A stretch of 64,000 nucleotides of DNA. Source: Raillietiella orientalis. Lineage: Eukaryota. The translations under genes and the position numbers were made by a program. Positions 12,769 through 36,316 of the stretch are shown here, in pieces (position 1 is the stretch's first letter; every line of letters starts with the position of its first letter). The stretch is taken from NCBI GenBank assembly GCA_036172245.1, contig JAYWIR010000127.1, positions 1 through 64,000 of the forward strand. The letters run 5' to 3'. The notes beneath the pieces were generated by a model. The model was not told the origin of the DNA. It saw nothing but the letters and a program-made list of their open reading frames with translations, and searched no databases.

Positions 12769-12859
12769 ACTCTAGTCCACACTCACTTTCTTCTGGATAC
12801 TTTCCCTCTCCGGGCACACACGATCACAATCAACTGATAATCGTCGTTGTGCGCGCAAT

Positions 12860-15764: not shown

Positions 15765-18177
15765 GAGTCTCCCTCGCTAGGGAGAAGCTAAAGTTTCGTG
15801 ACTCAGGCGCCAACGCAAGCGGCTGCGGCTGAGTTGAAAGCTTACCTGGAGAAGGGTACAATCCCCCTCTACTCTTCAAAGTAGGCAACCTTTACTCCTT
15901 TCAGAGTGCGCGCGCTTTCTCGAAAGCGATGCACTCCCTCAAAGTACCCCAGGAGGAGCTCTTGGCGATGACCATCAGGAGTAATGGACAGTACGTTGAG
16001 GTGATTTGCAAAGAAGCAAGTCTTGTCCCGCGTCTGCTCCGTACACCTGTTTCTTTGGGGAATCGCCGGCTCCTCCCCATCACGGAGGATAGTTCTATCG
16101 TAATCCATCTCCTTGAAATCACCTTCCGGATGGCCAAAGAGGCTTTCCGAAAATAATTAATTAAATTTAGAACCTACCACACGTTGTGGAAAAAGCCGAC
16201 TTCGTTTTGGGAGCGATTTGCTGAATTGCGGTCAGGCTTCCGCGCGAATCACGGTCCGCGAGGGTTGCTCTTTACAGAAAAAGCTGGAGGTCAACGGCGT
16301 CCCCGTTGACATCTGGTAAGTTCGTAAGCCGCATTTCTGCGGGCATTCCAGCACTTCAGGTCACCTGAAAAAAAGGTGCCCCCACTTGCAGTGCAAGCAA
16401 TGCAAACAACCCGGGCACACTCTTCCGGTGTGCCCGCAAAATGAAGTCCGCGTCGCGTCCTCACGGAATGCGGAGAAGCGCGCGGCCAAAATATAATGGG
16501 TTCAGGCAGCCCAAGAGAGACCCCCGCTAACAAGATAACTATCGTGCCCCAAGTGAAGGTCAGCTCCGAGATCCCGGAAAACTCAAAGAAGGTCAAGGAG
16601 AGCGGCCAGGAACCTGGATGGCAGGTAGTAAAATCCAAGAGGCAGAAAAGCCTCAAGGAACCAAAAAAAAATCTTGCCAAACGCACCGAGAATTTGCCGC
16701 GTCGCGAAAAGATCAAACGCTGCTTTCTCGTCATCAAACGCATTCCTGCGGTCGAAGAGAGCGGCAAAATTACTCTCGTCGCTGCCGACTTTCAGCCCTC
16801 CGGCAAATTAATGCCGGAGGATATCGACCCGGCGGTGGCGTCCGTCGTCTAACGCATGCTCGAAGACGTCGCTTTTGAGCGAGCGGCGGAGCAGCTGGCT
16901 GCGTCCTTGTACTGTCTCCCCAAATCCGCGAAGAAGGCCTTAAGGCCTCGATCAAGAAGTCTTAGATTCGGAACTCTGACGTAGAGGGGGAAAACGCAGC
17001 CTGCGGCATCGCGGCCTCCCGCCCGAAGGCCAGTCGCACGAAGAAGGCTACCTGCAAAATTATTCCGTTCGTGGAAAAGGGAGAGATAATCGAGGGAAGC
17101 GAGCGTGCGAAGAAAGTGGGGAACTTCGGGGACTCTACTCGAGAGGTAACGCTACGCTGCGACCCCGGAGGGAGGGAAATGGTAGAGTCTGTGCCCCAGG
17201 TGCTTCAAGTGCCTGAGATGGCCGCGGTCCCCTTACTCGTTCCTCCCACCTGTCCCTTGACAGGTGCTGCAACGCCACGTTCCCAGCCTTCATGCCGGGA
17301 ATCTCCTGTTGTTGCCGTCTGCGAATTGCCTGTTGGAACGTTAACGGGCTAGGCGACGAAGGCAAGAGACGAGACGTGGCCTCCACCCCGGCATCGTTCG
17401 CCCTGGTAGTGCTGCAAGAGATACACGTGATCTTCGCGCACCAAGCAACGGAGATCGAGCTTATCTCGGGTGGACGGCTGATGTGGCGTTGCCTCGCCGT
17501 GAATTCTTGCGGTGTTCCGTTTCTGCTTCGGAATGCTGTGTAGGCTGCGGCAAAGGGCGTACGGTTCGATAGTGCCGGTTGCGTCGGAAAGTTGACCATC
17601 TGGTGGTCCGACTTCATCGATCCGGTCATTACCATGTGTACGCACCAAGCAGCAGCGACGCGCTAAGAACAAAGGCAAGGAGGGATTTCTTCCTTATCCT
17701 GAGGCGCGAATATCTGGACGAAGCGGGAGTGCGTAAAGCGCACCTAATCGCAGGTGACTTTAACCTTCGCCTGCTGTCAGGTGCGTCCGACACACTTCGG
17801 CACCGCGTGAAGGACCTTTGCGCAGAGATGCACACGCGCAACTGATTCCCAGGAGATTCAGAAATGGCCGACAGCATAGATCACGTCTTTCTTGAGCAGC
17901 ACCTATGCTCACGCGTGAACAAACGCGGCAAGTTACCGTCGGAACTGTCGGACCATTACCGGATCGTATTCGAGGTGCGCTCACGCGATAAAGTTCCCCC
18001 GTCATCTGCGTGGCGCTTACCGGGGGACTGGCTGAAACCTTCGAAAGCCGCGGAGCATCTCTGCGGATTCATACGAGGTTTCAGCTTGCAGACGTTTCAG
18101 GACTGGGGCCGCTTCAAGCGCTTGGTCCGGGAGTTTTGCGACGAGTTTCCTATGAATCTCCTGCCTTCAGGGCTTGG
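15765..18177 (+). mobile_element. 5' half of LINE (ORF1 + APE), subfamily A-like
   Basis: LAMTIRSNGQYVEVIC, GWQVVK, IACWNVNG, LQEIH, AGDFN, DSIDHVF and ELSDH. Ends at LPSGLG. Confidence 0.9.
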
Positions 18178-18792
18178 TGTTGCCACCCGGGTAAGTCCGG
18201 GGCGTTTATTCAAAAAAGCTCTCTATGATTCGTGGTATAAGGCCCCACTTCTGCCTTAGACACGCCACCTGTCAGGGCACCGGGACGCAGCCCCGCGTGG
18301 CACTCCCCGACAGCGAAAGGGGATGGGGTAAAAAACAAAAAGAAAAATAAAAGAGATAAACAAAGAAAAAAAGTTTGGTGGGCAGGCAATGGATCACCGG
18401 AAGCTGTGAGGAATGCCCATCTGTCGAAGGAAGCCTTCGAGGTCTGTCCGCATATTTCCCAGATGGGGCCATCGAACAGCTCACCGCAAGAAGCGTACTG
18501 CGTGCTGGAGGACTTCCCTCTCGTTCCAATCTTCATCTTCGCTGTTGGCATCGCTCCAAGTCGACACGATGCCTTGAACTCAGCACAGGACTGCAAGGGC
18601 TGTTGTTGGCTGCAGGGCGTCCCGCACGAAGAGTGGCGGAAAAAGTCTCTGGGTGCAGTGCCCGTAGGGATTCCTAGGGTCGTCCCGAACCGTTCCCAAA
18701 GTGGCCGGAGGGCATCTCAATCTAATATAAGGTATGGGAGCGACTTTTGCTCCCCGCACCTGGCACACTGAGGCCTCACACTTTCCCGCGTC
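18178..18792 (-). mobile_element. 3' end of LINE (subfamily B); continues at 29765
   Basis: Terminal hairpin at 18184-18210 and CARCGEQKSL. TSD-like TTTCCCGCGTC (18782-18792) matches TTTCCCCGCGTC (29765-29776). Confidence 0.88.
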
Positions 18793-20362
18793 CTCTGCGC
18801 CAACGGCGAGGAGTTGGAGTGCCGTCGTTGCTGCACCATCCCCGGCTGCAGTAGCGGAGCAGACTGCCTACAACGACAGCGGCTACAAACCGTCACTGAT
18901 CTACAAGGTAGGCAGTGTGTACAATGAGAAAATTGCACGCTCCTTTGAAATGGAGCTGCAAAGACTGAATGTGAGGGAGGAAGACCTCGAGGGCCTCTCC
19001 GTCCTTAGTAAGGGGCAGCGAGTTGAGCTGACTTGCAGAGAGGCGAGTCTAGCGCAGCGCCTGCTAAACACCTTTATTACGGTGGAAGGCCGCAGGATCT
19101 TCCCTGTGACGGAGGACCGCTCCGTCGTGGTCCACCTCACGGGCGTATCACTCCGAATGGACAGAACCAGCGTCCATGAGGAGTTGTTAAAACACAGTAG
19201 AGTGCACCCGTATTGGGCCAAACCCAATGTCTTCCGAACGTACAAAGGACAATTCAGTGGGATGGCCGCTGCTCGCGTCACACTACCGGAAAATGGTGGG
19301 TTTACCCACAAACTAAATATCGGCGAAGAAAAAGTCGATGTTTGGTACGTGGGAAAGCTCAAATATTGTGGCCATTGCGATGCTACAGGGCACTTAAATA
19401 AACGGTGCCCTAACATCAAATGCCACTTATGTGGAAACAAGGGCCACATCCGCAAGGTGTGCCCAAGACGAGAAATCCCGGTTTCTCCCGCTGCGAAAAA
19501 GGCAAAGGGGAAACGGGCGGGAGAGACGAATACCATGGAGCAGGCCGTAAGGAGCCAGATGCCAGTCCCTAAGCCATCCCAGCAAACGTCGGTTGAAAGC
19601 ACTGCCGACGACGCTGGCGACGGCGAAGTCTGGCAGACGGTACAGCCCAGAAGAAAGCCCTGGAGTCCCGAACGAAGCGCGGGGAAAACAAAAACGCAGC
19701 GCGAAAAACCGTTCCGCGAAAAACTTCGCGCTTGTTTGGTAAAATTAGAGCGTTTGGCGGCACTAGATGCCGCCACCGGGGGAGCAATCCCCCTATTCTC
19801 GTCCGCCGAAGCTGCGACGGTCGATGGCGAACCCTCTGGGGAAGCAGAGAGGGAACCGCGCGCCGCGCTGGACGCGATCGAGGAGGCCGAATTCCAGCCG
19901 ACGGTGGAAGAACTCGAAACAGAACTGCAAGGCCGTGAGAAGAACTCCCGGAAAAGCTGACGAAGGCCGGCCGCGAGAAAGCCTCCGGATGCAGGTGAGA
20001 CCGAACCGGATGCCGGAAGTGCGTCCTCCTCAACGGATGCGCTACCAAAGTAGACGGGACGCGAGTCCCAGAATCCCAGGAGGCGCACACGGATCAAGAA
20101 GGAGGGGGATGAACTGGCACCCGAGGGGTAAGCCGGCAGCGTGGGAGGCGAGGGTGGGAATCTCTCATTTTCTGACAACGTGCAGCTGGCGACCCCCATG
20201 GAGGAGGAAGTACAGGTGGGTGAAACCCCCCTTCCTCTGCACGGCCATGACGAAGACTCGGCCCCCATGGAGGAAAGAGAAGCGGTGCGCGACGCACCTT
20301 CTCCTCCTAGCGTCCTGCCCAACAAGGTGGCGGGAGCCCCATTGCCACTTTCTCAGGATTAA
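18793..20362 (+). pseudogene. LINE ORF1 (RRM-like region + 2 CCHC), N-terminus truncated, internal stops
   Basis: The 408-aa track ORF 18734-19960 plus in-frame continuation to PLPLSQD* at 20362. Confidence 0.9.
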
Positions 20363-21223
20363 CACCTGGGATCGCCTGTCGCCGTAGGATCTGCATAGCC
20401 TGCTGGAACGTCAACGGGCTGCGCGACGACGGCAACAGGCGGGATACGGCCGACACCCTGCGCGACTTCGACCTGGCGCTCCTGCGAGAGATCCACGTAA
20501 TCACCGCGGAGAACGCCTAGGAGATCGAGAGGATCGCAGGTGGTCGTCTGTTTTACAGATGCGGCGCTCGCAACACCTGTGGCGTCGCCTTTTTTATAAA
20601 GCCAGCAGTCACCGCCTTCGTCAAGGACGTACGCTTCGACAACGACAGTCGTGTTGGCCAGCTCATCCTTAGGTGGTCCGACTCGATCGACCTTGTCGTG
20701 ACCAATGTGTATGCTCCGAGCGGAGGATGCGGGTACGAGGAACGTTCCCGGTTCCTCGAAACCCTGAAGCGCGACTGGATGGTGGATACAAACGTACGCA
20801 AAGTGCATCTGATCGGTGGGGATTTCAACATCCGCCTGCTCTCAGGTGTGCCTTGCGGGCAAACAGACGCAGCCAACGAGCTGTGCGTTGCTATGCGCAC
20901 GCAAAACTTGTTGGGGGACATAACGCACATGTCTTCCTTGATGCCGACCTGTGCCCACGGGTCGGCAGACGAGGGAAACTTCCGTCGACGCTATCGGACC
21001 ATTTGCGGTTGATATTCGAGGTTATGCCTCGCGACAAAGGACCACCATCAAAAGCGTGACGTCTGCCCGGGGACTGGACGCGCATCTCAGATGCGGTGGA
21101 ACTACTCCTCCAAGTACTGGGAGGCGTCATCCTCCGGAATCTTCAAGACTGGGACCGCATAAAGGCCTCGGTCCTCGAGTTCTGTGAGGAGTTCCCTGTA
21201 CACCGCCTGCCCCGGGGATTTAG
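18793..21223 (+). mobile_element. LINE 5' half (ORF1 + APE); continues at 26857
   Basis: Long ORF1 frame with CGHCDATGHLNKRC / CHLCGNKGHIRKVC, then APE CWNVNG..NVYAP..GDFN. Ends at LPRGF. Confidence 0.92.
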
Positions 21224-24200
21224 TGTTGCCACCCGGTTACGCCCGGGGCGTTTATTGAAACTCTACAAAAACGTAGTACGAGGCCCCACTAACGGCCGCA
21301 CAACACCGGACCTGCCGGGACACCGGGACGCAGCCCGGCGTGACGCTCCTCGGCAGTAAAGGGGAGTATGGGAGAAAACAAAAAAAAATTAAATAAAGAA
21401 TAACAAAAGGAGTTTGGAGGGAGGGGAAGGGATCACTATCCACTAGGAGGAGGGTCCATCCTTCGCAGGATTCTCTCTAGGTCCTTCTGCGTATGTCCCA
21501 GATGAGGCCATCTCGCAGCTCTTCGCATGCAGCTCGCAGCATACGGGATGACTTCCCTCTCGTTGGCATCCACTCCTTCATCGCAAATGTCGCTCCAGGC
21601 CGCCACGATGCTCCGGATGCAGCAGAGGGCTGCGGCGGGCTGCAGGGCGTCCCGCGAGAAGAGGGGCCTAAGAACATCTCTGGGCGCGCTGCACAGTGGG
21701 AGCCCGAGGGTCGCCCCGAACCGTTCCCACAGGGGTCGGATGGCAGCACAGTCAACTAGAAGGTTAAGAAGCGATTCCCGCTCTCCACACCTGGCACACT
21801 CAGGGCTTACACTTCCTCGCGTCCAGTGGAAGCGGCGCGCATTGCAGGGAAAACCCCAGTGCAACAGCAGCAGTGCCGACTCTTGCCACTTTAGCGGGAG
21901 AAGCCTGGATCCGATTAATACTATGGGCCACTTGAGGTCATCCGTCGGGATACCGAGCAGCTCGCTCCATCTAACAAGTCCACGCTGAAGGGCACTCGAG
22001 GTCGTGACATCTGCCAGTTCACCCATGGTCCTACCGCTCATTTTCTTTTCCCTGCCTGCGATCCGGCAGGAGACGTGCCACTTCGGCGCCAGGCCGCTGG
22101 TTAGAGCACTTCGTAGGAAGGGCAGCGTCGAAGCCAAAGAACTGGTCTCTGCCCACGTGCTCCTGGCGGGACACTTCATAGTGATCCGTAGGTTGCAGCA
22201 GGCGTTGGGGCCGAGTCCCAGGCGGTTCCATTCACGTCCGGTCTGAAGGTTCAGCTTGGCCCACGTCCCAACGGATTCCTCCAGAAAAGCGGAGGAGTTG
22301 GCGGGGCTGCATACCGTCCAGCCGTTCTCTCTCACCAGGGATTCCATGCGCCCAAGGAGAAGGCCGCATCTCCTGACCTTCCGACCGGGACACAGAAAGA
22401 AAGACGCGAGTAGTTGCTTCCTCGACACACGGCTGGTGATGATGCGGGCCGAAACGCACCAGGGGGTGTTCCACGTCTTTGCTGCGATGGCTAGGGTGCG
22501 TCATCACAGCTGTATGTCCATGCGCTCCAATGTCAGGAGGCCGAGACCACCGTCCCGACGCGGAGCGCATATGTCCTTAAGAGGTGCACGAGGCCTCCCA
22601 CTGCCCCAGAGGGCGATGCGGAGAAGATCTTTAGTCCTCTTCTTTAGGTCACGGGGGACAAGGCACACAAAAAGCAGAGGGCGGAGGATGAAGGCCGCCA
22701 ACGCGTTCCACACCGCGGCCCGTTCCGGCAGAAGAAACCTGCCTTCCAGGAACGGGCCGATTGATAACTCTACCTTTTCGAGACGACCTGACCAGGCTTC
22801 TGCGAGGCAGAATACCCTTAACGGGAAACCAAGTACTTCAGGTACCTGACCTTGGGGATCCATATGCAAATCCAGTCATGCCGTCCATCCCACGTCGCAC
22901 TCACCGGTTCCACCGACGACTTCGCCTTGTTAACCTGCAATCCAGTCCCACGGCTTAGCAGATCGAAGAAATCCTCGACTGCGGTTGCCGGGGCGGACAC
23001 GAACAACATCAGCAGAAGATCGTCGGCGTACGCAGCCACTGCGGGCGGGCTGGGGCACGAACAAGGCAAGGAAGCCAAAGTCACCCTGTACGCTCTCAGC
23101 ACCAACTCAAAGTAGGTGCTGAAGAGCAGGGGACTGAGGCGATAGCCTCAGTCCCCTGCAGTATGCCCTGTCGCAACGGCACGCCGTACGTTGTTTGTCC
23201 GCTAAAGTAGACGTTGATTAGAGCATGCCGCCAGTAAGAGCGCAGATAGGAGAGAAGAGAGGGTGGAAGCCCATGAGACCCAAAAGCTCCAACAGTAGCT
23301 CCTGGTCCACGGAGTCCAACGCCTTGTGGAGATCGACTGCAATCGCTAGGGCCCCCTTCCCTGCCCCGGTGTGCGTTCTCATCCCAGCTGGAGGTCCCAA
23401 ATGTGGGGTTGCCAATCCTTGTCGCTGTTTTATGGTGACATTTTTGCATATGGAACCATGTGCTCGCGAAGAACAGGTTGGCATGCATACTTCGAACGGG
23501 AACAGCGTATGTCGGCTCCGGGCTAATTATGGAGTCTGCTACCTGTCCAAGACGCGAAGCCCACAGTCCAGCAGTCAGCTTGGCGTCCGTGTTCACAATC
23601 GTGACCGGACGCCAATTGTTCAATGTTCTCAGGTCTCCTACCTTAGGGAGTAACCTCACTCTGGCTAACGGAAACGAGGCGGGAACATCACCTTCGTCTC
23701 GGATCAGCCTGGTCAACTGAAGCACCAGGGGTGCCAACTCTGTCGCGAATCACTGGAGAAACTCCGAGGGCAGGCCGTCCTCCCCTAATGCTTTCCTCCT
23801 TTTGAGCCTTTTAATACCGGCGAGAATTTCGCCAGTGGTAAAAGGCTCGTGGAGGCTAATCGTCTCTTCCTCCCCTATTGCCGGAGTTCAGTCAGGAAGC
23901 AGGAGCCGCGAGGCATCACGCTCTGAGGGTGCCTTGACGTAGAGGGAGAAGTAGAATCGTCGCACGAGGTGCCTGATCGCGGGTGGGGCCGAGCGTTCCT
24001 GGCCCTCGTCGTCCAGCAAGCTGGCCGACCCGGATTGCCAGGCTTGGGGCTCGGCCCCGGCTCGGAATTCTGCTAGGCGACGGACGTTGGGGTTCTCTCG
24101 TTCCGGCGCTCCTGTGAATAAGCCGTATGGTTGGGAGCTTCTTCCCCTAATCCGGGGGGCAGGCGGTGCAACGGAAACTCCTCGCAGAACTCGAGAACCG

Positions 24201-26856
24201 ATTCCTTAAAGATGACCCAGTCAGCGAGATTCCGGAGGGTGATGCCTCTCAGGAATTGGCGAACGTGTTCCTTCGCACCTTAGAGCCGCTTCCAGTCCCC
24301 AGGCAGCCGCCAGGCCCTTAAAGGGTGTCCTTTGTAGCGCGGGCATACCTCTGCGATTAACCAAGAATGGTCCGACAGCGTCGACGCAACTCTCCCCCGT
24401 TTGCCGACCCGCGAGCACAGGTCGGCATCCAGGAAGACGTGGTCCATGCTGCGGTCCATTCCCTCCACGTCCGCCAGCAAGTTATGTGTGCGCATGGCAG
24501 TGCACAGCTAGTTGTCCGTGCGTACTTCTTCTTTAAGCTCACCAGACAGCAGACGAAGATTAAAGTTCTCAGCTATCAGGTGTGCCTTCCGCACGTTCGT
24601 ATCGGCCAGCCATTCGCGCATAAGGGTTTCCAGCAGCCTGGTACGGTCGCTGTATCCCTTTTTTCCGCTCGAAGCGTATACATTCGTGACGATCAGGTCG
24701 ATCGAATCGGACCAGCTGAGAATCAGCTGACCGACCCGACCGTCGTCATCGAAGCGCACGCCCTTCACGGCAGCGTCGATGGCCGGCTTCACGAAGAACG
24801 CGACCCCGCAGGAGTTGCGGAGGCCACATCGCCAAAACAGGCGACCCCCCGCGATCGTCTCGATCTCCTGGACGTCTGCCGCGGTGATCAGGTGGATCTC
24901 CTGCAGCAGGGCCAGGTCGAAGTCACGCAGGGTGTCGGCCGTATCTCGTCTGTTGCCGTCGTCGCGCAGCCCGTTGACGTTCCAACTGGCCATGCGGATC
25001 CGAGGCGACAGGCGAGCCCAGGTGTTATTCCTGAGAAATTGGCTCTGCGGCGTCCGCCACCTGTTCGGGCGGGACGCTAGGTGGAGGGGGAGGGTCAGGT
25101 GCTGAAGGCACCTGGTTTCCCTCCTCCATGTGTAACGGCGCGTCGTCCGGTTCACCCTCAGGTGGGGTCGCGCCTCCCTGTTCGCCCTCCTCCATGGAGG
25201 CGGGCTGTTCAGGTTAGGCGACTACAGGGGAGACTTCGCCTCCCTGTTCACCATCCTTCATGGGGGTGGCCTGCTCGACAGCTTCCGTGAGTGGGAATTC
25301 CACCTCCAGGTTTCCCACGCTGGCGTCGGCTTCCAGCTTCTTCTCCTCGCTCGTGGAGGGGAGGCGTGGAGGGTTTTTAGGACTTACGTCCCGTCTACCG
25401 GGGTGGTTCATCCGAGGAGGAGAATGCACTTCCGGCCCCCAGGTCGAACTCACCTTCGGGGGCCTTCTTCGGCGGAGCCGGCCTGCGCACGGCCTTGCGT
25501 GAGGGGTTGTCACCTCGGCCAGAGTGACCGCGAGCTCCTCCGCCGCATTCGCGAAGGCGGCGTCCTCACCGTCGGCGCGCGCATCGCGCGGCTCACCTTC
25601 TGTGTAAACAGAGGGTTCGTCGTCATGAACCTCGAGCGCGGCGGAAACAGCTAGGGGAGGCTCGTCGCCCCAGGTGGCAGCCTCAGGAACGCTTACGCGA
25701 TCCAGTGCTACCGAGCACTCGCGGAGTTTTTCTGACAACGGCGCGGCTTTATTCTTTTTGCCGGCCGTGTTCTTGTTTTCCGTTTTCTTCAGTGGTTCTT
25801 TCATCACTTGTTTCTCCTTCCTGACCTTGACCAGTTGCCTTCCTTCCTCAACTCCCGCGTCTTCCGCGGTTTTATCCTCCGACGCTTGGGTGAGAGGAAG
25901 AGGAGGTGGCGGCTGGGGCCGGCCAGTTTCTCGCTTAGGTCTTTCGACCTTGTTCATTTTTTAAGCCTGCGCCTTTTTGGCAGCAGGTGGCACCAAGGAG
26001 GGGCGTTTAGGGCACACACGACGCACGTGTCCCTTAAACCCGCACAAGTGACAATGTTCGGGCACTGCTTGCGCAAGTGCCCTACTGCATTGCAAAAGCC
26101 ACAATAGCGGGGTTTCCCTACGTACCAGAGGTCGACGGATTCCTTCGTGACCTCGACTTTGTGGGGCAATTCAGCACTCTCATTGACAGTGACACGCGCT
26201 GCAGCCTGGTCTCCGAAATGGCTATGCAAGCCTTCCAAGATGGTGAGCTTTGGCCACAACGCGTGTATCTCTCCGTATTTCATCAACTCGTAATTGACCG
26301 CCGAGCGCGTCATCCGATTTGTTATTCCGGTTAGATGGACCACTACGGAGCGGTCCATGCTAACCGGTAGGATTTTCCGGCCATCCACATTCAGCGGGGT
26401 GTTTATCAGGCGCTGTGCTAAGGCTACGTCTTTGCAGACGACCTCCACGCGCTGCCCCCCGCTGAGTACGGAGAGGCCGTCAATATCCTCTTCTCTTACA
26501 TAAAAGTCCTGTAGCGCCTTACTGAAGGCTTAAGCTGTGCGATTATCAAACAGGGGTCCTACCTTATAAACCAGAGATGGCTTATATCCTGAGGCCCTGT
26601 AAGCCGCTTGCTCCGCCAAGGTTTCCGCGCTCGGCGCGGCCACCATGGCGCTCCACGTCCTTGGCGTTGTCGGGGATGATTCCACGGCGGACCCAGTAGG
26701 CCGTGGGGGGGGACTAGGCTTCCCTTCGCCTACCTCCATCGTGGTGTCCTCTGGCAGCGATGCCATCGGATACCAACGATGTGAAAAAACACACACTTTC
26801 CAAGAAGAAACCACTTCCCGGTACTTGTTGACGGAGCAACGGAAAAACACGTCCTT
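21224..26856 (-). mobile_element. Full-length (~5.6 kb) LINE, subfamily B, inserted antisense into the ORF2 of the + element
   Basis: 5' motif at 26841-26854, ORF1 start MASLPEDTTMEV (~26766), CCHC, APE, RT AYADD, zinc finger CARCGERESL and 3' hairpin at 21230-21256. Confidence 0.93.
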
Positions 26857-29764
26857 CCTTAACGAAAGGGCGTATTTGCACGCCCGTCGTTTCTCGAGGA
26901 CCCCTAACATCCGTCGCTTGGAGGAATACAAACCCGGGGCCGAGCGTCAAGCCTGGCAATCCGGGCCGCCCAGCGTGCTGGACGACCTGCACCAGAAATA
27001 CTCGGACCCGGCATCGATACGTCACCTCGTGCGTGGATTTTACTCCTTCTTTTACGCCAGGGTACCTGCGGAGTGGGACGTCTCGCGACGCTTGCTCCCA
27101 GATGGAGCCCCGGCCACAGGGGAGGAGGAGAAAGAAAGCCTCGACGAGCCCTTTACGACCGGTGAAATCATCCCCGCTATTAAAAGGCTCAAGAAGCGTA
27201 AGGCTCCAGGGGAGGACGGCCTGCCGGCGGAGTTCATTCAGAGCTTCGCGGCAGAGCTGACCCCCTTGGTGCTCCAATTGACACGGCTTATCCGAAACGA
27301 AGGCAGTGTTCCCGCCTCGTTTTGGTCAGCCAGGGTGAGGCTCCTTCCTAAGGGAGGAGACCTCAGAAAATTATGCAACTGGCGTCCGATCACGATTGTG
27401 AACACGGACTCCAAGCCGCTGGCTGGACTGTGAGCTGCGCGACTGGGGCAGGTAGCTGACAGCTTCGTCAGCCCGGAACAGACGTACGCTGTTCCCGGGC
27501 GAAGCATGGAAGCGAACCTATTCTTCGCCAGCACATGGTTCCATGTGCAACGCGAGAAAAATTTGGAAAAAGAACGGAATGTCGACAATCCTGATTTGGA
27601 AGCGCCAGCGCAGCAAGTAAGGGACGACCGGGAAGGGAAGGGGGCTTTAGCGATCGCAGTCGATCTGCACAAATCGTTCGATTGCGTGGACCAGGAACTC
27701 CTTCTGGAGCTCTTGGATTGCATTGGCTTCCCGGACACCTTAACGGTCTACCTGCGCTCCTGCTGGCGCAATGCTAACATCAACTTGTTTTTCAGATGCC
27801 AGCACGGGTTCGGCGTGCCGGTGAGGCGCGGCATCCGGCAGGGCGACAGCCTGAGTCCCCTGCTCTTTAGCACCTATTTCGAACTCGTGATGAGAGCATA
27901 CAGGGTGACATTGGCTGCCCTGCCAAGCTCGTGTCCAGGTACGCCGGCCGTATCGCCTCACGCCGATGATCTTCTGCTCCTTTTGCTAATGTCCGCCCCG
28001 GCAGCCGCAGTCATGGATTTCTTCGATCTGCTAAGCCGCGGGACTGGACTACGGGTAAATAAGGCGAAGTCATCGGTGATAGCGGTTGGTGCGAATTGGG
28101 TCGGACGGCCTGACTGGATCCGCTTGGGGATCCCCACAGAGAGGTACTTGAAGAACCTCGGCGTTCCGTTGGAGGACTTCTGCCAGTCAGAAGCCTGGTC
28201 AGGTCGTCTCCAAAAAGTGGAGTCAGCGATCGGCCCGTTCCTGGAAGGCAAGCTTTACTTGCCGGAACGGGCCGCGGTGTGGAACGCGTTTGCGGCCCCC
28301 CTCCTTCGCCCTCTGCTTTTTGTTTGCCCCGTACCCCGTGAACTGGAAAAAAGAACAAAGGACTTCCTACGCATTGTTGTGTGGGGAGGCGGGAGGCCTC
28401 ATGTGCCTTTAAAGGATTTGTGCGCTCCACGTCGGGAAGGAATTCTTATCGTCCTGACGATGGAGCGAATGGAAAACACAGCTGCGGACGCGCACTCTAG
28501 CCATCGCAGCAAAAATGTGGAACACCCCTTGGTGCGTTCCAGCCCGCCTTCTCGCCAGACGTCTGTCCGGGACTGTAGGACTCGCGTTTTTTCTTCTGTG
28601 CCCCGGCCGGAAAAAAAGATGCGGACTTCTCCTGGGACGCATGGCCACCCTGGCAAAAAGGAACGGGTGGATGGCCTGCAGCCCTGCCAACTCCAGCGTA
28701 TGGCTGAAAGAAACAGTTGGAACGTGGGCAAAGTTGAAACACATCACTGGAGAATCCTGCAACCGCCTGCGCACCGGCATTTACACCCGCTGTACGCTGC
28801 GAAACATGATCATTTGTCCCACCAGAAGCACTTGGGCGGAGACGACCCCACTGGCCACGGCGCTGCCCTTCCTACGAAGGGCGCTTCGAAACAGACGAAA
28901 GCCGAGATGGCAAGTCTCCTGCCGGATAGCGGGCAAAGAGAAGGATCTAAGCGGGTGGACAATGAGGGAACTGGCAGACGCCGCAACCCCAAGCGTTCAC
29001 CCGCATTGAATACGGAGATGGGGCAAGCTGCTTGGCATCCCGGCGGATGACCTAGAGTGGCCCTCGTTATTTACAGACGCATCCACCCTCCTCTTCAAGT
29101 GGCAGGAAACGGGGCTGTTGTTGTTGCACTGAGGTCTTTCCTGCAACGAGCGCCGCCACCACTGGACGTTGGGGAACGTGGGGCAGAACTGTGCAGTGTG
29201 CGGGGAGAAGGAATCCCTCCCCCATCTGTTAGTGGACTGCGGTGCCCTCCGGCCCTTGTTGAAACGTTATGCTACGACCCTCCCTATGCCGGTCGGCAGT
29301 ACCCCCAGAGACGCTGTGAGACTCCTCTTCGTGCGAGACGCCCTGTCACCAGCCTCAACCCTGGCAGCGCTCTGCTGCCTCCGAGGGATTGTGGCCGCCT
29401 GGAGCGAAGCCAACAGAGGAAGCAGCAACCGGGACTTCATCGTACACGCGGGTCGCTACCTGCGAATCGCGATCGGATGGTTCCATCTGGTAGCTATGAC
29501 GAGGGACCTCGAGGGCATCCTGGAAAGAATGGTCCTCTTCTACAGCGGGCTGTGATCCCTTCCCGGCCCTCCAAATAGTTTCTTTTTGTTATTTCATTTA
29601 TTTTTCTTTTTGTTTTACCCCCTATCCCCTCCGTTGCCGAGGAGGACAAGCTGGCCTCAGAACCGGCTTCCTGGCAGGTCCGATGAAATATTGGCCGTAG
29701 CGGGGCCCAGTACCGCAAATGTAAAGTGTTTTTTAATAAACACCATGGCGTGACCGGGTGAAAA
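26857..29764 (+). mobile_element. LINE 3' half (linker, RT, zinc finger, 3' end); continuation of 18793-21223
   Basis: Resumes at NERAYLHARR, then DLHKSFD, GIRQGDSLSP, HADD and CAVCGEKESLPHL. Terminal motif at 29735-29760. Confidence 0.92.
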
Positions 29765-32247
29765 TTTCCCCGCGTCTAGTGGAAGCAGTGCGCGTTGCAG
29801 GGTAGACCTAAGTACAACAGCAGAAGCGCCGTCTCTTGCCAATTTAGAGGAACAAGTCTGGATCCGATGAATACTGGGGGCCACTTCAGGTCATCAGTCG
29901 GAATGCCGAGGAGCTCATTCCATTTCAAAAGTCCGCGCGGGAAAGCACTAGGGGTCGTGGCGTCTGCCAGCTCTCCCATGGTCCAACCGATCATCTTTTT
30001 TTCGTTTCCTGCGATTTGGCAAGAGACTTGCCACTCTGGCAACAGGCCACTTGTTAAATCCCTCCGTAGAAAGGGCAGCGTTGAAGCTAAAGGGGTGATC
30101 TCAGCCCACGTGCTCCTTGCGGGACACTTCAGAGTGCTCCGTCGGGTGCAGCCGGCGTTGGGGCCGAATCGCAAGCGGTTCCAATTTTCGGTTCCTGGGT
30201 TGTTCAGCTAGGCCCACCTCGCAACGGATTCCTCCTGCCGAGCGGAGGAGTTGGCGGGGCTGCATATTGTCCAGCTGTTTTCCTTCACCAGGGCTTCGAT
30301 GCGTCCAAGGAGAAGGCCGCATCTCCTGACTCTCCGGCAGGGGCACAGAAGGAAAGACGCGAGTCCTTGCGTGCTGGATACACGACTGGCGAGGATGCGC
30401 GTCGGAGCGCACCAGGGGGTGTTCCACGTCTTTGCTGCGATGGCGAAGGTGCGCCATTGCAGCTGTCTGTCCAAACGCTCCAACGTCAGGAAGCCAATTC
30501 CTCCGTCACGACGCGGAGCGCATATGTCCTTAAGAGGTGCACGAGACCTCCCACTGCCCCAGAAGGCGGCCTTTAGTCCTCTTCTTTAGGTCACGGGGGA
30601 CAAGGCACAGAAAAAGCAGAGGGCGGAGGATGAAGGCCGCCAACGCGTTCCACACCGCGGCCCGTTCCGGCAGAAGGAACTTGCCTTCCAGGAACGGGCC
30701 GATTGATAACTCTACCTTTTCGAGACGACCTGAGCAGGCTTCTGCGAGGCAGAATACCCCCAACGGGACACCCAGGTACTTCAGGTACCTGACCTTGGGG
30801 ATCCATATGCGGATCCAGTCAGGCCGTCCATCCCACGTCGCACCCACCGGTTCCACCGGCGACTTCGCCTTGTTTAACTGCAGTCCAGTCCCACGGCTTA
30901 GCATGTCGAAGAAATCCTTGACTGTGGCTGCAGGAGCGGGCATGGGCAACATCAGCAGAAGATCGTCGGCGTACGCAGCCACTGCGGCTGCATGCCAGCG
31001 CAAGAGCTCGGTATGGGGGACAAAGTCACCCTGTACGCTCTCAGCACCAACTCAAAGTAGGTGCTAAAGAGAAGAGGACTGAGGCTATCACCCTAATGTA
31101 TGCCTTGCCGCACCGGCATGTTGTGCACCTGTTGACACGAAAAAATGATGTTTACAATAGCGTTGCGCCAGCAGGAGCGCATGTGGGAAATCAGGGAGGG
31201 TTGGAAGCCTATGCGAACCAGGAGCTCTAACAGTAGCTTCTGGTCCACGCTGTCGAACGCCTTATGCAGATCGACCGCGATCGCTTGGGCGCCCTTTCCA
31301 GCCTTGGTATCGGTTCTTAGCCCCGCTGGCGGCAACAAAGTAAGCCTGCCAATCTTGCTCCCTGATTCGTTTGGGTAGCGTCGCACATGGAACCATGTGC
31401 TCGCGAAAAACAGGTTGGCAACCATACTTCGCCCGGGAACAGAGTATGTCTGCTCCGGGCTAATTATGGAGTCTGCCACCTATCCTAGACGCGAAGGCCA
31501 CAGTCTAGCAATTAGCTTGGTGTCCGTGTTAACAATTGTGACCAGACGCTAATTGCTCAGTGATCTCAGGTCTCCTCCCTTTGGAAGCAGCCTCAATTGG
31601 GCTGACCGAAACGAAGCGGGAACGTCACCTTCGTCTCGGATCAGCCTGTTCAACTGAAGCACCAGTGGTGCCAACTCTGTCGCGAAGCATCGGAAAAACT
31701 CCGCGGGCAGGCAGTCCTCCCCTGGTGATTTCCTTTTTTTGAGCCTTTTAATACCGGCGAGAATTTCACCGGTAGACAAAGGCTCGTGGAGGCTAATCGT
31801 CTCTTCCTCCCCTATTGCCGGAGTTCAGTCAGGAAGCAGGAGCCGCGAGGCATCACGCTCTGAGGGTGCCCTGACGTAGAGGGAGTAGTAGAATCGTCGC
31901 ACGAGGTGCCTGATCGCGGGTGGGGCCGAGCGTTCCTGGCCCTCGTCGTCCAGCAAGCTGGCCGACCCGGATTGCCAGGCTTCACGCTCGGCCCCGGCTC
32001 AATATTCGGCCTGGCGACGGACATTGGGGGTCCTCTCTTACCATCAGGCCTGTAAATAGGCCGTATGGTTGCGAGTCCCCTTCCCAAAATGGGGGGGCAG
32101 GCGGTGCAAGGGGAACTCCTCGCAGAACTCGCGGACCGAGGCCTTAAAAGGTCCCTGTCAGCGATATTCCGGAAAGTGACACCTCTCAGGAATTAGCGAA
32201 GGTGTTCTGTCGGCCCTGAAAATCGCGTCCAGTCACCAGGCAGCCGC
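29765..32247 (-). mobile_element. LINE ORF2 central part; continuation of 18178-18792
   Basis: WQETALLLL, AYADD, KYLGV, DLHKAFDSVDQ and KSPGED. Confidence 0.9.
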
Positions 32248-34205
32248 ATTCCTGTTCAGGTACGCCGACAGTGGCAGCCTATGCCGACGACCTGCTTCTT
32301 CGGTTGCCCATGTTCATCCCGGCGGCTTCGCTTGAAGATTTCTTTCAGTTGATCCGTCGCGGTGCGGGCGTGAGCGTCAACAGGAGCAAGTGCATGATTG
32401 TTTCGGTTGGAGCGACGTAGGAGGGGCAGTCCTACTGGATCCGCCTGAGAAACCCCACGGGCAGGTACCTAAGGTAAATTGAAGTGCTTTTGGGCGACTT
32501 CGGCATCTCAGAAGCGTGGTCGGACTGCCTTCGGAAAGCAGAGCGTGCACTTGGCGCGTTCTCAGGAGGCGAGTTCGTCTTGCCGGAACGGGTTAGCATC
32601 CGGAAGAACTTCGTTGCCTTTCTCCTCCGCCCCCTGGTTTTTGTTTGTCCACCTACCCAGGAAGTCAAAGTCTTGGCGCAGCGCCTTCTGCGCAAAACGT
32701 TGTGGGGCGCTGCACGATCCCGCGTAAGACTTAAACACTTGGTGGCGCCGCGTCAGGATGCACGCTTGGGCATCCTAGACTTAAAACCCATCGAGCTGCA
32801 GGTGCAGTTTCGAATGATGCGGCTCTTTTCCAAGCTGTGGTGTACGCCGTGGTGCTTACCCGCACGAATTATTCTAAGGCGCTGCACAAGAAGCGAGAAA
32901 CTGCTTTCGTTGCTGCCTTACATTCGGCACACCAGAATAAGGTTTGGCCTCCCGCTGAGGCAGCTGTCCTCACTGCTGGAAGCCCAATTTTGGAACTTCT
33001 GCCGCCCCATGAACATAAATGCATGACGGCAGAAATCTTTTTCTTCGTGGGCAGCATTCGAATTAACGGCCCTGAAGTTCTTCGACGCCTGCGACTTCTC
33101 CTCGGTCATCAAATGGACGAAGTCATGCAGGACAAAAAGATGTCGGATCGTTTGGCCTCCACACTACTCGCCGCAGCGCTGTGTGCCCTCAGGGCAAGCG
33201 ACGACAGTTGCCTACCGGCAAAATGGGAGTTCTCCTGCTCAAAAGCGGGAGTCTGTAAGCTCCTTGGCTGCTGGACTACAAAGGAGCTGTGGAAACTGCC
33301 ACTCTTCGTAATCGGGCGAAGGGCCTGCTTCGGTGGAGTGAACATTTAATTGTACCCCCCGAAGAGATAGTGGTTCCCCCCGTTTGTTTGGACAGCTCCG
33401 TGTTCCCTTTAAAGTGGAAACAAGATGTTCTGCTCTTTTTACATTGTGCATTACACTGTAATAGGCAGCGAAGCATCGTTTTCGGGGGAGCTGCTTTGCC
33501 AAACTGTTTAAGGTGCGGAGAGATCGAGTCTTTTCCGCACCTCTTGCTGGACTGCGGTGACCTTCGTGAACTGTAACGAAGGCTGATTTCAGCCAAGATG
33601 TTGCAGGGAGGCACTGCCATTGATGTGCTGCGGCGCTTCTTCAGGAGGAATGGATTTTCGGTAGGCGCGAATGTCGCAACCATGTGTTGCATTCGCGCCA
33701 TCGTGAAGGCCCGCTACGCCCTGGAGGTGTCAGCGCAGCAAAGGGAGTTTCACAGGTTTGCAGCAGAATTGATGCAACAGGCTGTTAGGTAACTTTATCT
33801 TCGTGACAAGGTCAAAAAGGACATCGACGGCATCCATCGCCGGTTTACGGACTTCTAGGAACGGCTTAATCCGGTGATCACTTCGTCCTGAAGCTTACCC
33901 ATACCCCTTCTCCGCTCGCTCTGCTAAACTGCAGGTGCGATTACTTTTATCCAAGTGCGAACCATAGCGATCCCAAAGTCCCTTGTCCCGGCGTCCACCA
34001 TTGATTTCTTTTTTTTTTGTTTTTGTTTGTTTGTTTTCTTAGTTCCCACATACCATTCTGTGTTATTCTGTCCTGCGTGCCAACAATATTCTCTTGATAC
34101 TTGTGCCGAGGTCGGTTGGGAGGCATGGTCCCCAACTGGTTTATTTTATATAATTGTGTCTGTTGAATTTTTATGAAATAAACGCCCCGGCGTGACCGGG
34201 TGAGA
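32248..34205 (+). mobile_element. LINE 3' part (from RT YADD to 3' end)
   Basis: Starts at TPTVAAYADD and includes CLRCGEIESFPHL. Ends AATAAACGCCCCGGCGTGACCGGGTG at 34177-34202. Confidence 0.9.
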
Positions 34206-36316
34206 AATCTGGGCGTTCTCCGCAATGATCACGTGGATCTCCTGCAGGAGCGCCAGGTCGAAGTCACGCAGGGTGGCGGCCGTGTCCCGTCTGTTGCCGT
34301 CGTCGCGTAGCCCGTTCACGTTCCAACAGGCCACGCGTAATCGACAGCGACAGGCGAGACCAGGTGTTATTCCTGGGAAAGTGGCAATGGGGTTCCCGTC
34401 ACCTGGTCGGTCGGGACGGATGGAGGAATGGGGTCACAGCTCACCGGTTCTCCCTACTCAATGGGGGCTGAATCCTCGGCGGACTGCTACGGTTGAAGGG
34501 GCAGGTTTCACACACGTGCTCCCCCTCTCCCATGGGGGTCGATTCGTTGGCTGCTCTGGACGGCAGGGGGGAGCGGTGTTGAACACTCTGCTCTTCCTAC
34601 TCCATGGTTTTCTCCTCAGCAGGTCCCACCGTTGGAAGGGGGCGGCAATGACTTACCTTCTCCCTCTCCTCCATAGGGGTGGCCAGCTGCTCGGTAGCGG
34701 AGGGTGGGAAAATCCCTCTCTCCGTTCCTATGCTACCGGCTTCCCCCTCGGCTGCCGGTGCATTACCCTCCTTCTTTGTCGGGATGCGCCTTTTCGGATT
34801 CTTGGACTTCCGTCCAGTATTCTTCGTAAGCGCCTCCGCGGAGGAGAACTCACTTCCGGCATCCGGGTCGTGGTCACCTGTCAGAGGTGCCCTGGTCGCC
34901 GCCGGCCTTCGCAAGGCCTTTCGCGCTTCGTTCTCACGGTCCGCGAGTTCAGCCGCGAGCTCTTCCGCCGCGTGTTGGAAGGCGGCGTCTTCGATTGCGG
35001 GGAGCGCGTCGCTCGTCTCCCCCTCTCTTTGTGCAGAGGGTTCGCCTTCCGCGGTCGCAACTTCGTCGTCAACGAGAAGGGTAATATCTCCCTCGGTGGC
35101 GGTTTCGGAGACATCCACACGCTCAAAAGCGACCGAACATTCGCGGAGTAAAGCGCGGCGTTATCTCCTATTGAATTGAGATGTCGCGGGTTTCGCTGTC
35201 GGGCCTTCGGTTTTCTTGATCTTTTTGCTATTCGGCTTCGCCTTATGCCAGCCCTCGCTGTCTCCAGAGTCGTCGGGAGTATCGTCGATTGGAGCTTGCT
35301 GTACGGGTTCTGGAACTGGCAGTGGGTTCCGCTTCTCGGGTCCCTCCTTAGGCTTTTCCGTTCGCCCCGCGTGTTTCCCTTTGGCTTTTTTCAAGGCAGG
35401 GAGAGCCGGGGTTTCGCGTTTAGGACACACCTTCCGCAGGTGGCCCTTTCCGCCGCAATGGAAGCACTGGATGTGGGGGCATCCTTTTTTAAGGTGCCCT
35501 GGGGCATCGCAGTGTCAACAGTACTTGGACTTTCCCACCTAGAAGATGTCGACGACTTCGTTGCTGACATCTAGTTTGTGAGGTAGCCCAGCGTTTTCGT
35601 TGACGGTCACACGCGCTGCAGCCATGCCACCGAAGAGTCTTCCGTAACTTTGGAAGATGTTCGGCTTGGTCCATACCGCGTGTAACGTACCGAATTTACT
35701 TAATTCCTCCTTCACTCCGCTTTTTGACATGCGGAGGGACACTGCAGTAAGATGCGCTACCACAGAGCGATCCTTGGTAATCGGAAAGACCCTTCTGCCT
35801 TCCAGCATAAGGGGAGTATTCAGCAGGCGCTGAGCCAAGCTTGCAGCTTTGCAAGTTAGCTTCACCCGCTGACCCCCCTGAGCACTGAAAGACATTCCAG
35901 GTCCTCCTCTTTTACATCTACCCGCTGCAACTTCCTCTCGAAGTTGCGGGCAGTTTTCCCCAAAGACAAATTTCTTACTTTCTAAATCAAGGACGGCTCT
36001 TAACCTTCTTTAATGTAGGCGCGCTTTTCTGCTGCATATGCAGGAGATGGCTCTCCAGGACTTCGTCGTTGCCGAAGAAGGTTCTAAGGAGGCGGTCTCT
36101 TCCTTTTTCAAGAAGGCGGTTGCCCTCTCCTCCGTGGGGGCAGTTGCCCTCACCTTAATGTGTTGTGGAGAGGAACAATCCTCTCCCCCGCCGACTTCCA
36201 TCGCGGTGTCTTAAAGAATTTCGGCCATTGGACACCGCCGATGCAACAGACAAAAACACTAACGAAAACAAACGCTTAACAACAGGCGCAAAGGAGCGCG
36301 GAAAAAACACGTCCGC
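34206..36316 (-). mobile_element. LINE 5' part (5' end, ORF1, start of APE)
   Basis: 5' motif at 36301-36314, DRSVVAHLT, CCHC remnants and ACWNVNG..LQEIH. Confidence 0.9.

What the first reader, a model, noticed from the sequence alone, without database searches (positions are those of the whole stretch)
18160..21260. Hotspot 2: subfamily B inserted antisense at the same post-endonuclease site (3' junctions 18178 and 21224; 5' junctions 26856 and 41036)
The left junctions are CCTTCAGGGCTTGG|TGTTGCCACCCGG and CCCCGGGGATTTAG|TGTTGCCACCCGG (host LPSGLG| and LPRGFS|). The right junctions are CACGTCC|TTCCTTAACGAAAGGGCG and CACGTCC|TTCCGTAACGAAAGGGCG (host resumes NERAYL). Uninterrupted copies read LPTGFKTGVRNERAYL (~44740-44790). 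The APE sequences of the two left hosts belong to different subfamilies. I see no TSD; a few host bases appear to be missing instead, which would be a reproducible, atypical junction geometry.
Basis: partly seen in the sequence, partly recalled or inferred. Interest (0 to 1): 0.8.

Follow-up and report, generated by a model that had tools for sequence, protein, structure and literature searches.

The report
Recurrent antisense LINE-in-LINE insertion site
In a dense pile of nested jumping genes (LINE retrotransposons), two copies of one lineage sit backwards at exactly the same codon of two different host LINEs, which points to a preferred landing site rather than a copied block, although two cases cannot prove it.

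Summary
Most of the window (about 1 to 57.8 kb) is a nest of APE+RT non-LTR retrotransposons from an unidentified GC-rich eukaryote.

**The two junctions**
- Two full-length B-lineage elements lie antisense in two 5'-truncated host LINEs. B#2 is 21224-26854. B#1 is 18178...41035 and is itself interrupted.
- In both hosts the left arm ends after the 2nd base of the same codon. In both, the right arm resumes at TTCC(G/T)TAACGAAAGG.
- There is no target-site duplication. About 7 host bases are missing.

**Not one composite copied twice**
- The host arms are not sister sequences (AU p=0.00096 and 0.0024). They are 62% and 75% identical, against about 80-86% for the inserts over the homologous regions.
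- The nesting order is H1 < B#1 < H2 < B#2.

**Best reading (0.55):** independent target-primed insertions by a lineage with a strong preference for this linker site.

**Limits**
- n=2.
- The third B-lineage copy (46035-51684) sits elsewhere.
- Mosaic high-identity patches show recombination or gene conversion among copies.
- No genome, sequencing reads or close relatives could be found, so no genome-wide census was possible.

A second recurrent antisense site lies about 80 nt upstream. This would be a new variant of target-specific LINEs. Interest is moderate.

The parts
17274..18177 (+). Host 1 (H1), left arm. This is the APE-coding part, ending ...LPSGLG after the 2nd base of the codon. H1 is 5'-truncated; its ORF1 remnant lies at 15854-16493.
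18178..18793 (-). B#1, 3' segment (C coordinates about 6406-7021). It ends AATAAA + hairpin + CCGGGTG + tail GCAACA, directly against H1.
18794..21223 (+). Host 2 (H2), left arm. It holds ORF1 with two CCHC knuckles and the APE domain, and ends ...LPRGFS after the 2nd base of the codon. H2 is inserted antisense in B#1 with a 12-nt TSD (18782-18793 and 29766-29777, 10 of 12 bases identical).
21224..26854 (-). B#2, a full-length (5631 nt) B-lineage LINE lying antisense in H2. Its 5' end is GGACGTGTTTTTCC at 26841-26854. Its reading frames are broken into pieces of 217-354 aa.
26855..29765 (+). H2, right arm. It resumes TTCCTTAACGAAAGG (..LNERAYL), runs through the RT domain and C-terminal region, and ends in its own 3' module with tail AAAAT.
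29766..32247 (-). B#1, middle segment (C coordinates about 3929-6416). It holds B#1's own uninterrupted linker site at 32056-32100.
32248..38661 (.). Block of other nested LINE pieces that splits B#1: e34177(+), x36(-) and G(+). It is flanked by an 85-nt overlap of B#1 sequence that is 81% identical between its two copies.
38662..41035 (-). B#1, 5' segment (C coordinates about 1376-4013). Its 5' end is GGACGTGTTTTTCC at 41022-41035.
41036..41854 (+). H1, right arm. It resumes TTCCGTAACGAAAGG (..RNERAYL) and covers the RT N-terminal part. It probably continues at 53049-55144 beyond another nested element.
44739..44783 (-). Empty site of the NERAYL type in element D (LPTGFKTGVRNERAYL).
46035..51684 (-). 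Element C, the third B-lineage full-length copy. It is inserted in sense orientation in ORF1 of element D/F, not at the hotspot. Its own linker site at 48940-48984 is empty.
24118..24162 (-). B#2's own linker site (LPPGLGEEAPNHTAYS type), empty.

Best explanation
Two separate target-primed reverse transcription events placed B-lineage LINEs into the same position, and in antisense orientation, within the short linker that joins the endonuclease (APE) and reverse-transcriptase coding regions of two unrelated, already dead (5'-truncated) host LINEs.

Inferred steps:
1. The B-lineage ORF2 endonuclease nicks the host-sense strand after ...CTTGG or ...TTTAG.
2. The 3'-OH primes cDNA synthesis on the B RNA, whose 3' end is ...CCGGGUGGCAACA.
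3. The second strand is cut about 7 nt away on the side that loses sequence rather than duplicating it.
4. The full-length cDNA, whose 5' end is GGACGTG..., is joined next to TTCC(G/T)TAACGAAAGGGCGTA.

The reproducibility implies recognition of more than a 4-5 nt nick motif. The most likely determinant is the conserved sequence to the right of the nick, which the two occupied hosts share and which the B lineage's own copies lack.

What is shown: the termini, the geometry, the nesting order, and the non-congruence of hosts and inserts. What is inferred: the nick position, the order of cleavages, and what the endonuclease recognises.
For: 1. The borders are identical in both cases and lie at true element ends.

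2. The hosts differ.
- The APE arms are 61.9% identical and the RT arms 75.2%. The inserts are 85.6% identical over the homologous RT N-terminal segment and 78-84% over the APE-coding windows 24091-25289.
- Path lengths are 0.73 and 0.36 for the hosts, against about 0.20 and 0.17 for the inserts.
- An H1+H2 clade is rejected, with p-AU 0.00096 and 0.0024.

3. Nesting gives the order H1, B#1, H2, B#2. H2 has its own 12-nt TSD inside B#1.

4. B#1 and B#2 are not uniformly diverged.
- Identity is 65-72% at both ends and 78-97% inside.
- In the 3' 600 nt, B#1 groups with C rather than with B#2 (84/88). A B1+B2 clade there has p-AU 0.044.
- This suggests different source elements.

5. Other family members make ordinary TSDs: H2 12 nt and P about 14 nt. 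The geometry without a TSD is therefore particular to these insertions.

6. Site types differ.
- The two occupied hosts and the empty D carry ..NERAYL.. .
- The three B-lineage copies carry ..NH(R/T)AY.. and are only 54-65% identical to the hosts over the 50 nt to the right of the site.
- So 0 of 3 B-type sites and 2 of 3 NERAYL-type sites are occupied.

7. A second same-position pair of antisense insertions, by another lineage, lies about 80 nt upstream.
Against: - There are only two events.
- The third B-lineage copy (C, whose APE is 83% identical to B#2's) sits in ORF1 of another element, in sense orientation, with unrelated flanks except a shared CCAAG next to its 3' end. Specificity is therefore not strict.
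- The left flanks of the two hosts share only 12 of the last 20 nt (my count) and 63% of the last 50 nt.
- The apparent block of H1-H2 similarity to the right of the site is not backed by shared derived characters. In the first 40 columns the quartet counts are 2, 1 and 0, with 1 uniquely shared site.
- If the endonuclease needs YTTRG, there are only about 22-34 such sites per element on both strands. Under that motif-limited model a coincidence among 3 B-lineage copies is roughly 1 in 10 (my arithmetic).
- Mosaic patches show that recombination or gene conversion has acted on these copies. B1-B2 is 97% identical where B-C is about 75%, and H1R-C is 91-96% identical over C coordinates 4251-4700. 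This weakens arguments based on divergence.
- Codon-position differences between B#1 and B#2 are nearly flat (97, 66 and 94 differences at positions 1, 2 and 3).
Confidence: 0.55

Rival explanations
1. Spread at the DNA level. One ancient insertion into this site was later copied into other host LINEs by gene conversion or double-strand-break repair, using an occupied copy as template (homing-like). Each transfer reproduces the same junctions.
For: - Identical junctions without a TSD are what copying by repair would give.
- Mosaic patches of 91-97% identity between physically neighbouring copies show that sequence has been exchanged among elements of this nest.
- H2 switches affinity at the site. 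It is like C and B on the left (78-82% in the last 50 nt) and like H1 and D on the right (81% and 73% in the first 50 nt).
Against: - B#1 and B#2 are only 65-72% identical at both termini.
- There is no co-converted left flank: H1 and H2 are 63% identical in the last 50 nt.
- The right-flank similarity lacks shared derived characters.
- B#1 cannot itself have been the donor, because it already carried H2.
Confidence: 0.15
2. Weak nick-site preference plus chance. The B endonuclease only prefers a short motif (about YTTRG), LINE DNA is the main target available in this region, and two of three copies happened to use the homologous motif.
For: - The primer ends are CTTGG (B#1), TTTAG (B#2) and CTTGG(AG) (C).
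- Only about 22-34 YTTRG sites exist per element.
- 9 of the 11 breakpoints I read in the nest fall in C coordinates 3371-4923. Insertions cluster there in any case.
Against: - The second junction also coincides to the base, with the same ~7-nt loss. Other family members show TSDs of 12-16 nt.
- A second same-position pair exists about 80 nt upstream.
Confidence: 0.15
3. One composite (a host carrying antisense B) was copied as a unit, by retrotransposition in trans or by segmental duplication.
For: H2 and B#2 together are bounded by one TSD inside B#1. A unit insertion of H2+B#2 is therefore not excluded by the anatomy alone.
Against: - Host and insert trees are incongruent, and an H1+H2 clade is rejected.
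- The hosts are two to nearly four times as distant from each other as the inserts are.
- The left arms are 61.9% identical, against 78-84% for the inserts in the APE-coding windows.
Confidence: 0.05
4. The composite formed during the host's own reverse transcription. The RT paused at the APE-RT boundary of the host RNA, switched to a free full-length B first-strand cDNA, copied it end to end, and switched back. This would force antisense orientation, exact B termini and the absence of a TSD.
For: It would explain the antisense orientation, the full-length termini and the small host loss. It is also compatible with H2+B#2 sharing one TSD.
Against: - It needs two precise template switches.
- No stable structure was predicted at the site: DNA folds of -4.4 to -6.7 kcal/mol with no common hairpin in 4 of 4 empty sites.
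- The element G at the neighbouring hotspot is 5'-truncated, as expected of ordinary insertion.
Confidence: 0.05

Closest known systems
Target-specific APE-type LINEs of the R1 and Tx1 clades (targets: rDNA, telomeric repeats, snRNA genes, microsatellites, transposons)
   Same: - The element encodes an APE endonuclease.
- It inserts at one nucleotide position, in one orientation, in a multicopy and dispensable sequence.
- Passages of the Introduction of PMC4640811 list transposons among known targets and name the early-branched, Tx1 and R1 groups as the main target-specific LINEs.
- That Tx1L inserts into the DNA transposon Tx1D is my recollection, not a call.
   Different: - The target here is the coding linker of sister LINE lineages.
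- Only 2 of 3 B-lineage copies in the window use it.
- The clade of this family could not be determined: there is no reference library and no close relatives.
- About 7 bp of target is lost.
R2 and Utopia (site-specific LINEs with a restriction-like endonuclease)
   Same: - The 3' junction is precise, and the target is altered without a TSD.
- A passage of PMC4640811 says arthropod Utopia families make no TSD and that 3' boundaries are precise.
- That R2 leaves a small target deletion is my recollection.
   Different: - Those elements carry a restriction-like endonuclease and target rRNA or U2 genes.
- This family has an APE domain (PF03372, E=1e-12 to 1e-13).
- Its 5' junction is also precise.
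ingi/RIME insertions at one position of RHS genes in Trypanosoma brucei (recalled, no call)
   Same: An APE LINE with loose specificity that repeatedly occupies the same nucleotide of a multigene family.
   Different: - The hosts there are cellular (pseudo)genes, not other LINEs.
- Those insertions have TSDs, as I recall.
Nested LINE clusters such as Zepp (Chlorella) or Cnl1 (Cryptococcus) (recalled, no call)
   Same: LINEs pile up almost only inside older copies of their own family, giving multi-level nests like the ~57 kb seen here.
   Different: As I recall, those nests are not described as reusing one internal codon in antisense orientation.

Membership tests
APE-type non-LTR retrotransposon (LINE) | Apurinic-like endonuclease domain upstream of a reverse transcriptase in ORF2 | tested here: met
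   PF03372 matched with E=1.1e-12 and 9.9e-14. PF00078 matched with E=7e-21 and 5.9e-11. Both are above the curated cut-offs. The domain order is shown.
APE-type non-LTR retrotransposon (LINE) | Insertion by TPRT: variable 5' truncation, a fixed 3' end, and target-site duplications | tested here: met
   - H1, H2, G, P and e34177 are 5'-truncated at different points.
- The 3' module is shared by 8 pattern matches plus B#2, which was read directly.
- H2 has a 12-nt TSD and P one of about 14 nt.
APE-type non-LTR retrotransposon (LINE) | ORF1 with CCHC zinc knuckles (present in some clades) | tested here: inconclusive
   Two CX2CX4HX4C motifs are visible in the translations. The Pfam zf-CCHC matches have E=0.006-0.05, which is below the gathering score.
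Strictly target-specific LINE (R1/Tx1-like behaviour) | Nearly all copies of the lineage sit at the same target position and in the same orientation | tested here: inconclusive
   2 of 3 B-lineage copies in the window do so, and copy C does not. No genome was available for a census.
Strictly target-specific LINE (R1/Tx1-like behaviour) | 3' junction at the same nucleotide of the target in independent copies | tested here: met
   Both hosts end after the 2nd base of the homologous codon, followed by the same tail GCAACA.
Strictly target-specific LINE (R1/Tx1-like behaviour) | RT phylogeny places the element in the R1 or Tx1 clade | not testable with these tools
   - No reference LINE library is on hand.
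- The RT search gave one relative at 70% identity and 9 further hits at 31% or less, none with an informative name.
- The Atlas hits are generic RVT_1 clusters.
Composite element copied as a unit | Host arms and inserts give congruent trees with equal divergence | tested here: not met
   the trees are incongruent, and an H1+H2 clade is rejected with p-AU 0.00096 and 0.0024.

The most novel reading that the evidence does not exclude
LINE lineages in this genome carry distinct, heritable 'addresses' inside rival LINEs.
- The B lineage recognises the NERAYL-type APE-RT linker of competitor lineages. It spares its own NH(R/T)AY-type linker. It inserts antisense and splits the rival's ORF2.
- The K/G lineage does the same about 80 nt upstream.

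These would be hyperparasitic LINEs with self/non-self discrimination. They would use other LINEs both as safe havens and as victims.
Probability: 0.17. Interest if true: 0.8.

Novelty: new variant of a known kind. Interest (0 to 1): 0.5.

Why it matters
Known target-specific LINEs home to rDNA, telomeres, small RNA genes, microsatellites or DNA transposons. A lineage that homes to a fixed codon of competing LINEs, in antisense orientation and with a reproducible small deletion, would have three consequences:
- It would show that target specificity can evolve against sister elements.
- It would give a simple route to multi-level LINE nests, that is, heterochromatin-like islands.
- It would offer a natural pair of related APE endonucleases with different addresses for studying how APE specificity is encoded.

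If a census shows no excess at this site, the finding reduces to an ordinary nest with a coincidence.

Tried and rejected
- **Whole genome:** none is held.
- **Public sequencing runs:** none was listed for 18000-27500. No RNA holder was listed.
- **Metagenome scan with the 3' module pattern:** 0 matches.
- **Metagenome scan with an RT alignment:** 177 of 527 candidate stretches encode relatives. The 80 kept are all distant (19-37% identity), and none belongs to this family.
- **Genome-contig scan:** 1 match. It is a chance terminator-like hairpin next to a bacterial gene in a MAG contig.
- **Viral-contig scan:** 0 matches.
- **Protein search with the RT:** 10 hits among 8000 scored candidates, of which only P0001 is close at 70%.
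- **Protein search with the APE-plus-site ORF:** no hit at E<=1e-5.
- **Atlas:** only generic RVT_1 clusters.
- **Earlier notes of this scan:** nothing by place, by sequence or by words.
- **Rfam:** 0 families. Tandem repeats were unrelated to the finding.
- **Idea that the site is a conserved hairpin or palindrome:** rejected. DNA folds of 4 of 4 empty sites are weak and dissimilar.
- **Idea that GCAACA is host sequence, which would give a blunt insertion:** rejected. The two left arms are only 62% identical yet share all 6 bases. H1's own tail is GCAACTGGCAAC. All 5 full-length 5' ends start GGACGTG.
- **Idea that about 40 nt of right flank travelled with B (5' transduction or co-conversion):** not supported by shared derived characters.
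- **Resemblance between the lost host bases (GACCGGGG in D) and the arms of the 3' hairpin:** noted by eye only. It was not tested and is not used.
- **Whether the 85-nt overlap inside B#1 is a long TSD:** unresolved. The two copies are 81% identical, no closer to each other than to C or B#2.
- **Whether C has a TSD:** unresolved.
- **Organism and LINE clade:** not identified.
- **Literature:** three searches listed no paper describing a LINE that reuses one internal codon of other LINEs in antisense orientation. I read only the listings, plus passages of PMC4640811.


Full report
**What the window is.**
- GC content is 51-62% up to about 58 kb and 43-49% after that.
- Self-comparison shows dozens of related segments at 70-90% identity on both strands.
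- Long frames carry Exo_endo_phos (E=1e-12 to 1e-13) and RVT_1 (E=7e-21 and 6e-11).
- ORF1 shows two CCHC knuckles by eye. The Pfam matches for them fall below the cut-off.

The region is therefore a nest of APE-type non-LTR retrotransposons in a eukaryote that I could not identify. No genome is held.

The most complete copy, here called C, lies on the minus strand at 46035-51684. I used the minus strand of 46030-53060 as a ruler ('C coordinates'). On that ruler a full-length element runs from C1376 to about C7025, roughly 5.65 kb.

**Element ends.**
- Five full-length copies start with GGACGTGTTTTTCC (5 matches against 0.49 expected).
- Eight pattern matches, plus B#2 read directly, end with AATAAA, a short GC hairpin, CCGGGTG and a 5-12 nt variable tail (8 matches against 0.08 expected).
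- There is no poly(A) tail.
- B#1 and B#2 share the tail GCAACA. H1 has GCAACTGGCAAC, H2 has AAAAT and C has TAAAC.

**The observation.**
- The exact borders are 18177|18178 and 41035|41036 for B#1 in host H1, and 21223|21224 and 26854|26855 for B#2 in host H2.
- The hosts are on the plus strand and the inserts on the minus strand.
- In 5 of 5 uninterrupted copies (D, C, B#1, B#2, Q) the linker from L-P to Y-L is 16 codons.
- Both occupied hosts keep 17 nt on the left and 24 nt on the right. So 7 nt are missing, or 10 nt if the TTC is not host sequence. Nothing is duplicated.

**Nest anatomy** (my reading; inferred).
- H1(+) is 5'-truncated. It lies at about 15854-18177, 41036-41854 and probably 53049-55144.
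- B#1(-) sits in H1 at the linker.
- H2(+), also 5'-truncated, sits in B#1 at about C6410. Its 12-nt TSD has 10 of 12 bases identical.
- B#2(-) sits in H2 at the linker.
- A further block (32248-38661) splits B#1.
- D/F(-) sits in H1 at C4910-4923.
- C(-) sits in ORF1 of D/F in sense orientation.
- The order of arrival is therefore H1, B#1, H2, B#2, unless H2 and B#2 arrived together as a unit.

**Is it one composite copied twice?**
- *Identities.* The host APE arms are 61.9% identical and the host RT arms 75.2%. The inserts are 85.6% identical over the homologous RT N-terminal segment, and 78-84% over the APE-coding windows.
- *Trees.* In the APE segment H1L groups with D (96/93) and H2L with the C/B clade (100/99). 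In the RT N-terminal segment H1R groups with C (98/97), B1 with B2 (100/100), and H2R falls outside.
- *AU tests.* Holding H1 and H2 together costs 63.6 and 25.9 log-likelihood units, with p-AU 0.00096 and 0.0024.
- *The inserts are not uniformly diverged.* B1-B2 identity is 65-72% at the ends and 78-97% inside. In the 3' 600 nt B#1 groups with C (84/88), and a B1+B2 clade there has p-AU 0.044.

A dead composite that decayed neutrally would not look like this.

In several scripts I placed the borders 1-2 nt off (21224/21225, 26856/26857, 41036/41037). That does not affect these numbers.

**Results that cut the other way.**
- Codon-position differences between B#1 and B#2 are almost flat: 97, 66 and 94 differences out of about 603 sites at each position.
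- Some pairs of neighbouring copies have patches of very high identity that other pairs do not share. B1-B2 is 97% identical at C4251-4400 and at C5436-5583, where B-C is about 75%. H1R-C is 91-96% identical at C4251-4700. D-C is 87% identical at C5286-5435.
- Recombination between lineages, or gene conversion within the nest, has therefore happened, and arguments from divergence are softer than they look.
- The two halves of B#1 overlap by 85 nt at 81% identity. That is no closer than either half is to C or to B#2. I cannot tell whether the overlap is a long, decayed TSD.
- Copy C belongs to the B lineage. It is in the ORF1 clade at 100/100, and its APE is 83% identical to B#2's. Yet it is not at the hotspot.
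- C's flanks resemble the hotspot only in a CCAAG next to the 3' end.

**What might be recognised.**
- The primer-strand ends are CTTGG (B#1), TTTAG (B#2) and CTTGG(AG) (C).
- YTTRG occurs 22-34 times per element on both strands. A nick motif alone would therefore make a coincidence among three copies roughly 1 in 10 (my arithmetic).
- The second junction, however, also coincides to the base.
- To the right of the site the two hosts share 32 of the first 40 aligned bases, including an identical TAACGAAAGGGCGTA.
- D differs from that 15-mer at 3 positions.
- The B-lineage copies are only 54-65% identical to the hosts over the first 50 nt.
- The left 50 nt are only 63% identical between the hosts.
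- Shared derived characters are too few to show that the right flank moved together with B.
- No common hairpin is predicted at empty sites.

**Second hotspot (noticed in passing).**
- About 80 nt upstream, after the Leu codon that precedes Q/A-D-W, two elements of another 3' clade abut hosts in antisense orientation. The clade is (G,(D/F,K)), with support 92/88 and 94/93.
- K(-) abuts host N(+) at about 13477|13478. G(+) abuts B#1(-) at about 38661|38662.
- K and G are 64.6% identical. The hosts N and B#1 are only 51% identical.
- The borders are uncertain by 1-2 nt because of the variable tails.
- By my reading, 8 of 11 insertions in the nest are antisense, and 9 of 11 breakpoints fall in C3371-4923.

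**External evidence.** None could be obtained.
- No sequencing run was listed.
- Neither metagenome scan found close relatives.
- The genome-contig scan gave one chance hit in a bacterial contig. The viral scan gave nothing.
- One protein is 70% identical to the RT, and nothing matches the APE-plus-site frame.

**Comparison with known systems.**
- The same passages state that the APE-bearing specific lineages are in the Tx1 and R1 clades, and that some Utopia families make no TSD while keeping precise 3' borders.
- The behaviour seen here fits that kind of element.
- The differences are the target (the coding linker of sister LINEs, in antisense), the incomplete specificity (2 of 3 copies) and the unknown clade.
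- Three literature searches (listings only) showed no description of such a case.
- The parallels with R2, ingi/RHS, Zepp, Cnl1 and Tx1L/Tx1D are recalled, not checked.

**Verdict.**
- Copying of a single composite is rejected.
- Independent insertion at a preferred site is the best reading (0.55).
- The live rivals are DNA-level spread by repair (0.15) and a weak nick motif plus chance (0.15).
- Novelty: a new variant of a known kind.
- Interest: 0.5.

Noticed in passing
window 13400-13530 and 38610-38740: A second recurrent antisense site lies about 80 nt upstream of the finding, after the Leu codon that precedes Q/A-D-W. The 3' end of K(-) abuts host N(+) at about 13477|13478. The 3' end of G(+) abuts B#1(-) at about 38661|38662. 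K and G fall in one 3' clade together with D/F. The two hosts are only 51% identical.
   Followed up: partly
window 21224-32247, 41036-41854 and 46035-51684 (C coordinates 4251-4700 and 5286-5583): Mosaic patches of 87-97% identity occur between particular neighbouring copies (B#1-B#2, H1R-C, D-C), where other pairs are about 75% identical. This points to gene conversion within the nest or to recombinant source lineages.
   Followed up: partly
window 32163-32247 and 38662-38747: An 85-nt stretch of B#1 is present on both sides of the 6.4-kb block 32248-38661. The two copies are 81% identical. It could be a long decayed TSD, or the two halves could be different elements.
   Followed up: partly
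window 34209-38661: x36(-) has a full-length 5' end at 36314. It lies head to head with the 5'-truncated G(+), which starts at about 36319. x36 lacks its 3' part, which is replaced by e34177(+) (32244-34208). This could be an inversion of the twin-priming type or a deletion at insertion.
   Followed up: no
whole nest, window 1-57800: By my reading of the BLAST maps, 8 of 11 insertions are antisense to their host. 9 of 11 breakpoints fall in C3371-4923, the region from the APE domain to the RT N-terminus, although the 3' halves of elements are the more abundant target.
   Followed up: partly
window 8528-12771 (minus strand): A much more divergent LINE lies here. Its RT and APE are 27-39% identical at the protein level to C. 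It carries a 27/48-nt tandem repeat at 12378-12544.
   Followed up: no
window 58000-64000: The nest ends near 57.8 kb. Beyond it GC drops to 43-49%. There is no frame longer than 164 aa and no LINE similarity.
   Followed up: no
window 47087-48907 and 48697-49899 (minus strand): The family is almost absent from public protein collections. One protein (P0001) is 70% identical to the RT. The other 9 hits are 31% identical or less. Nothing matches the APE frame.
   Followed up: yes
window 41820-41900 and 53010-53090: D/F(-) appears to be inserted in H1 with a duplication of about 16 nt (HKAFD / HKAVD). The two copies share only about 11 of 16 bases. Either the nest is old or the two H1 pieces are not one element.
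   Followed up: partly
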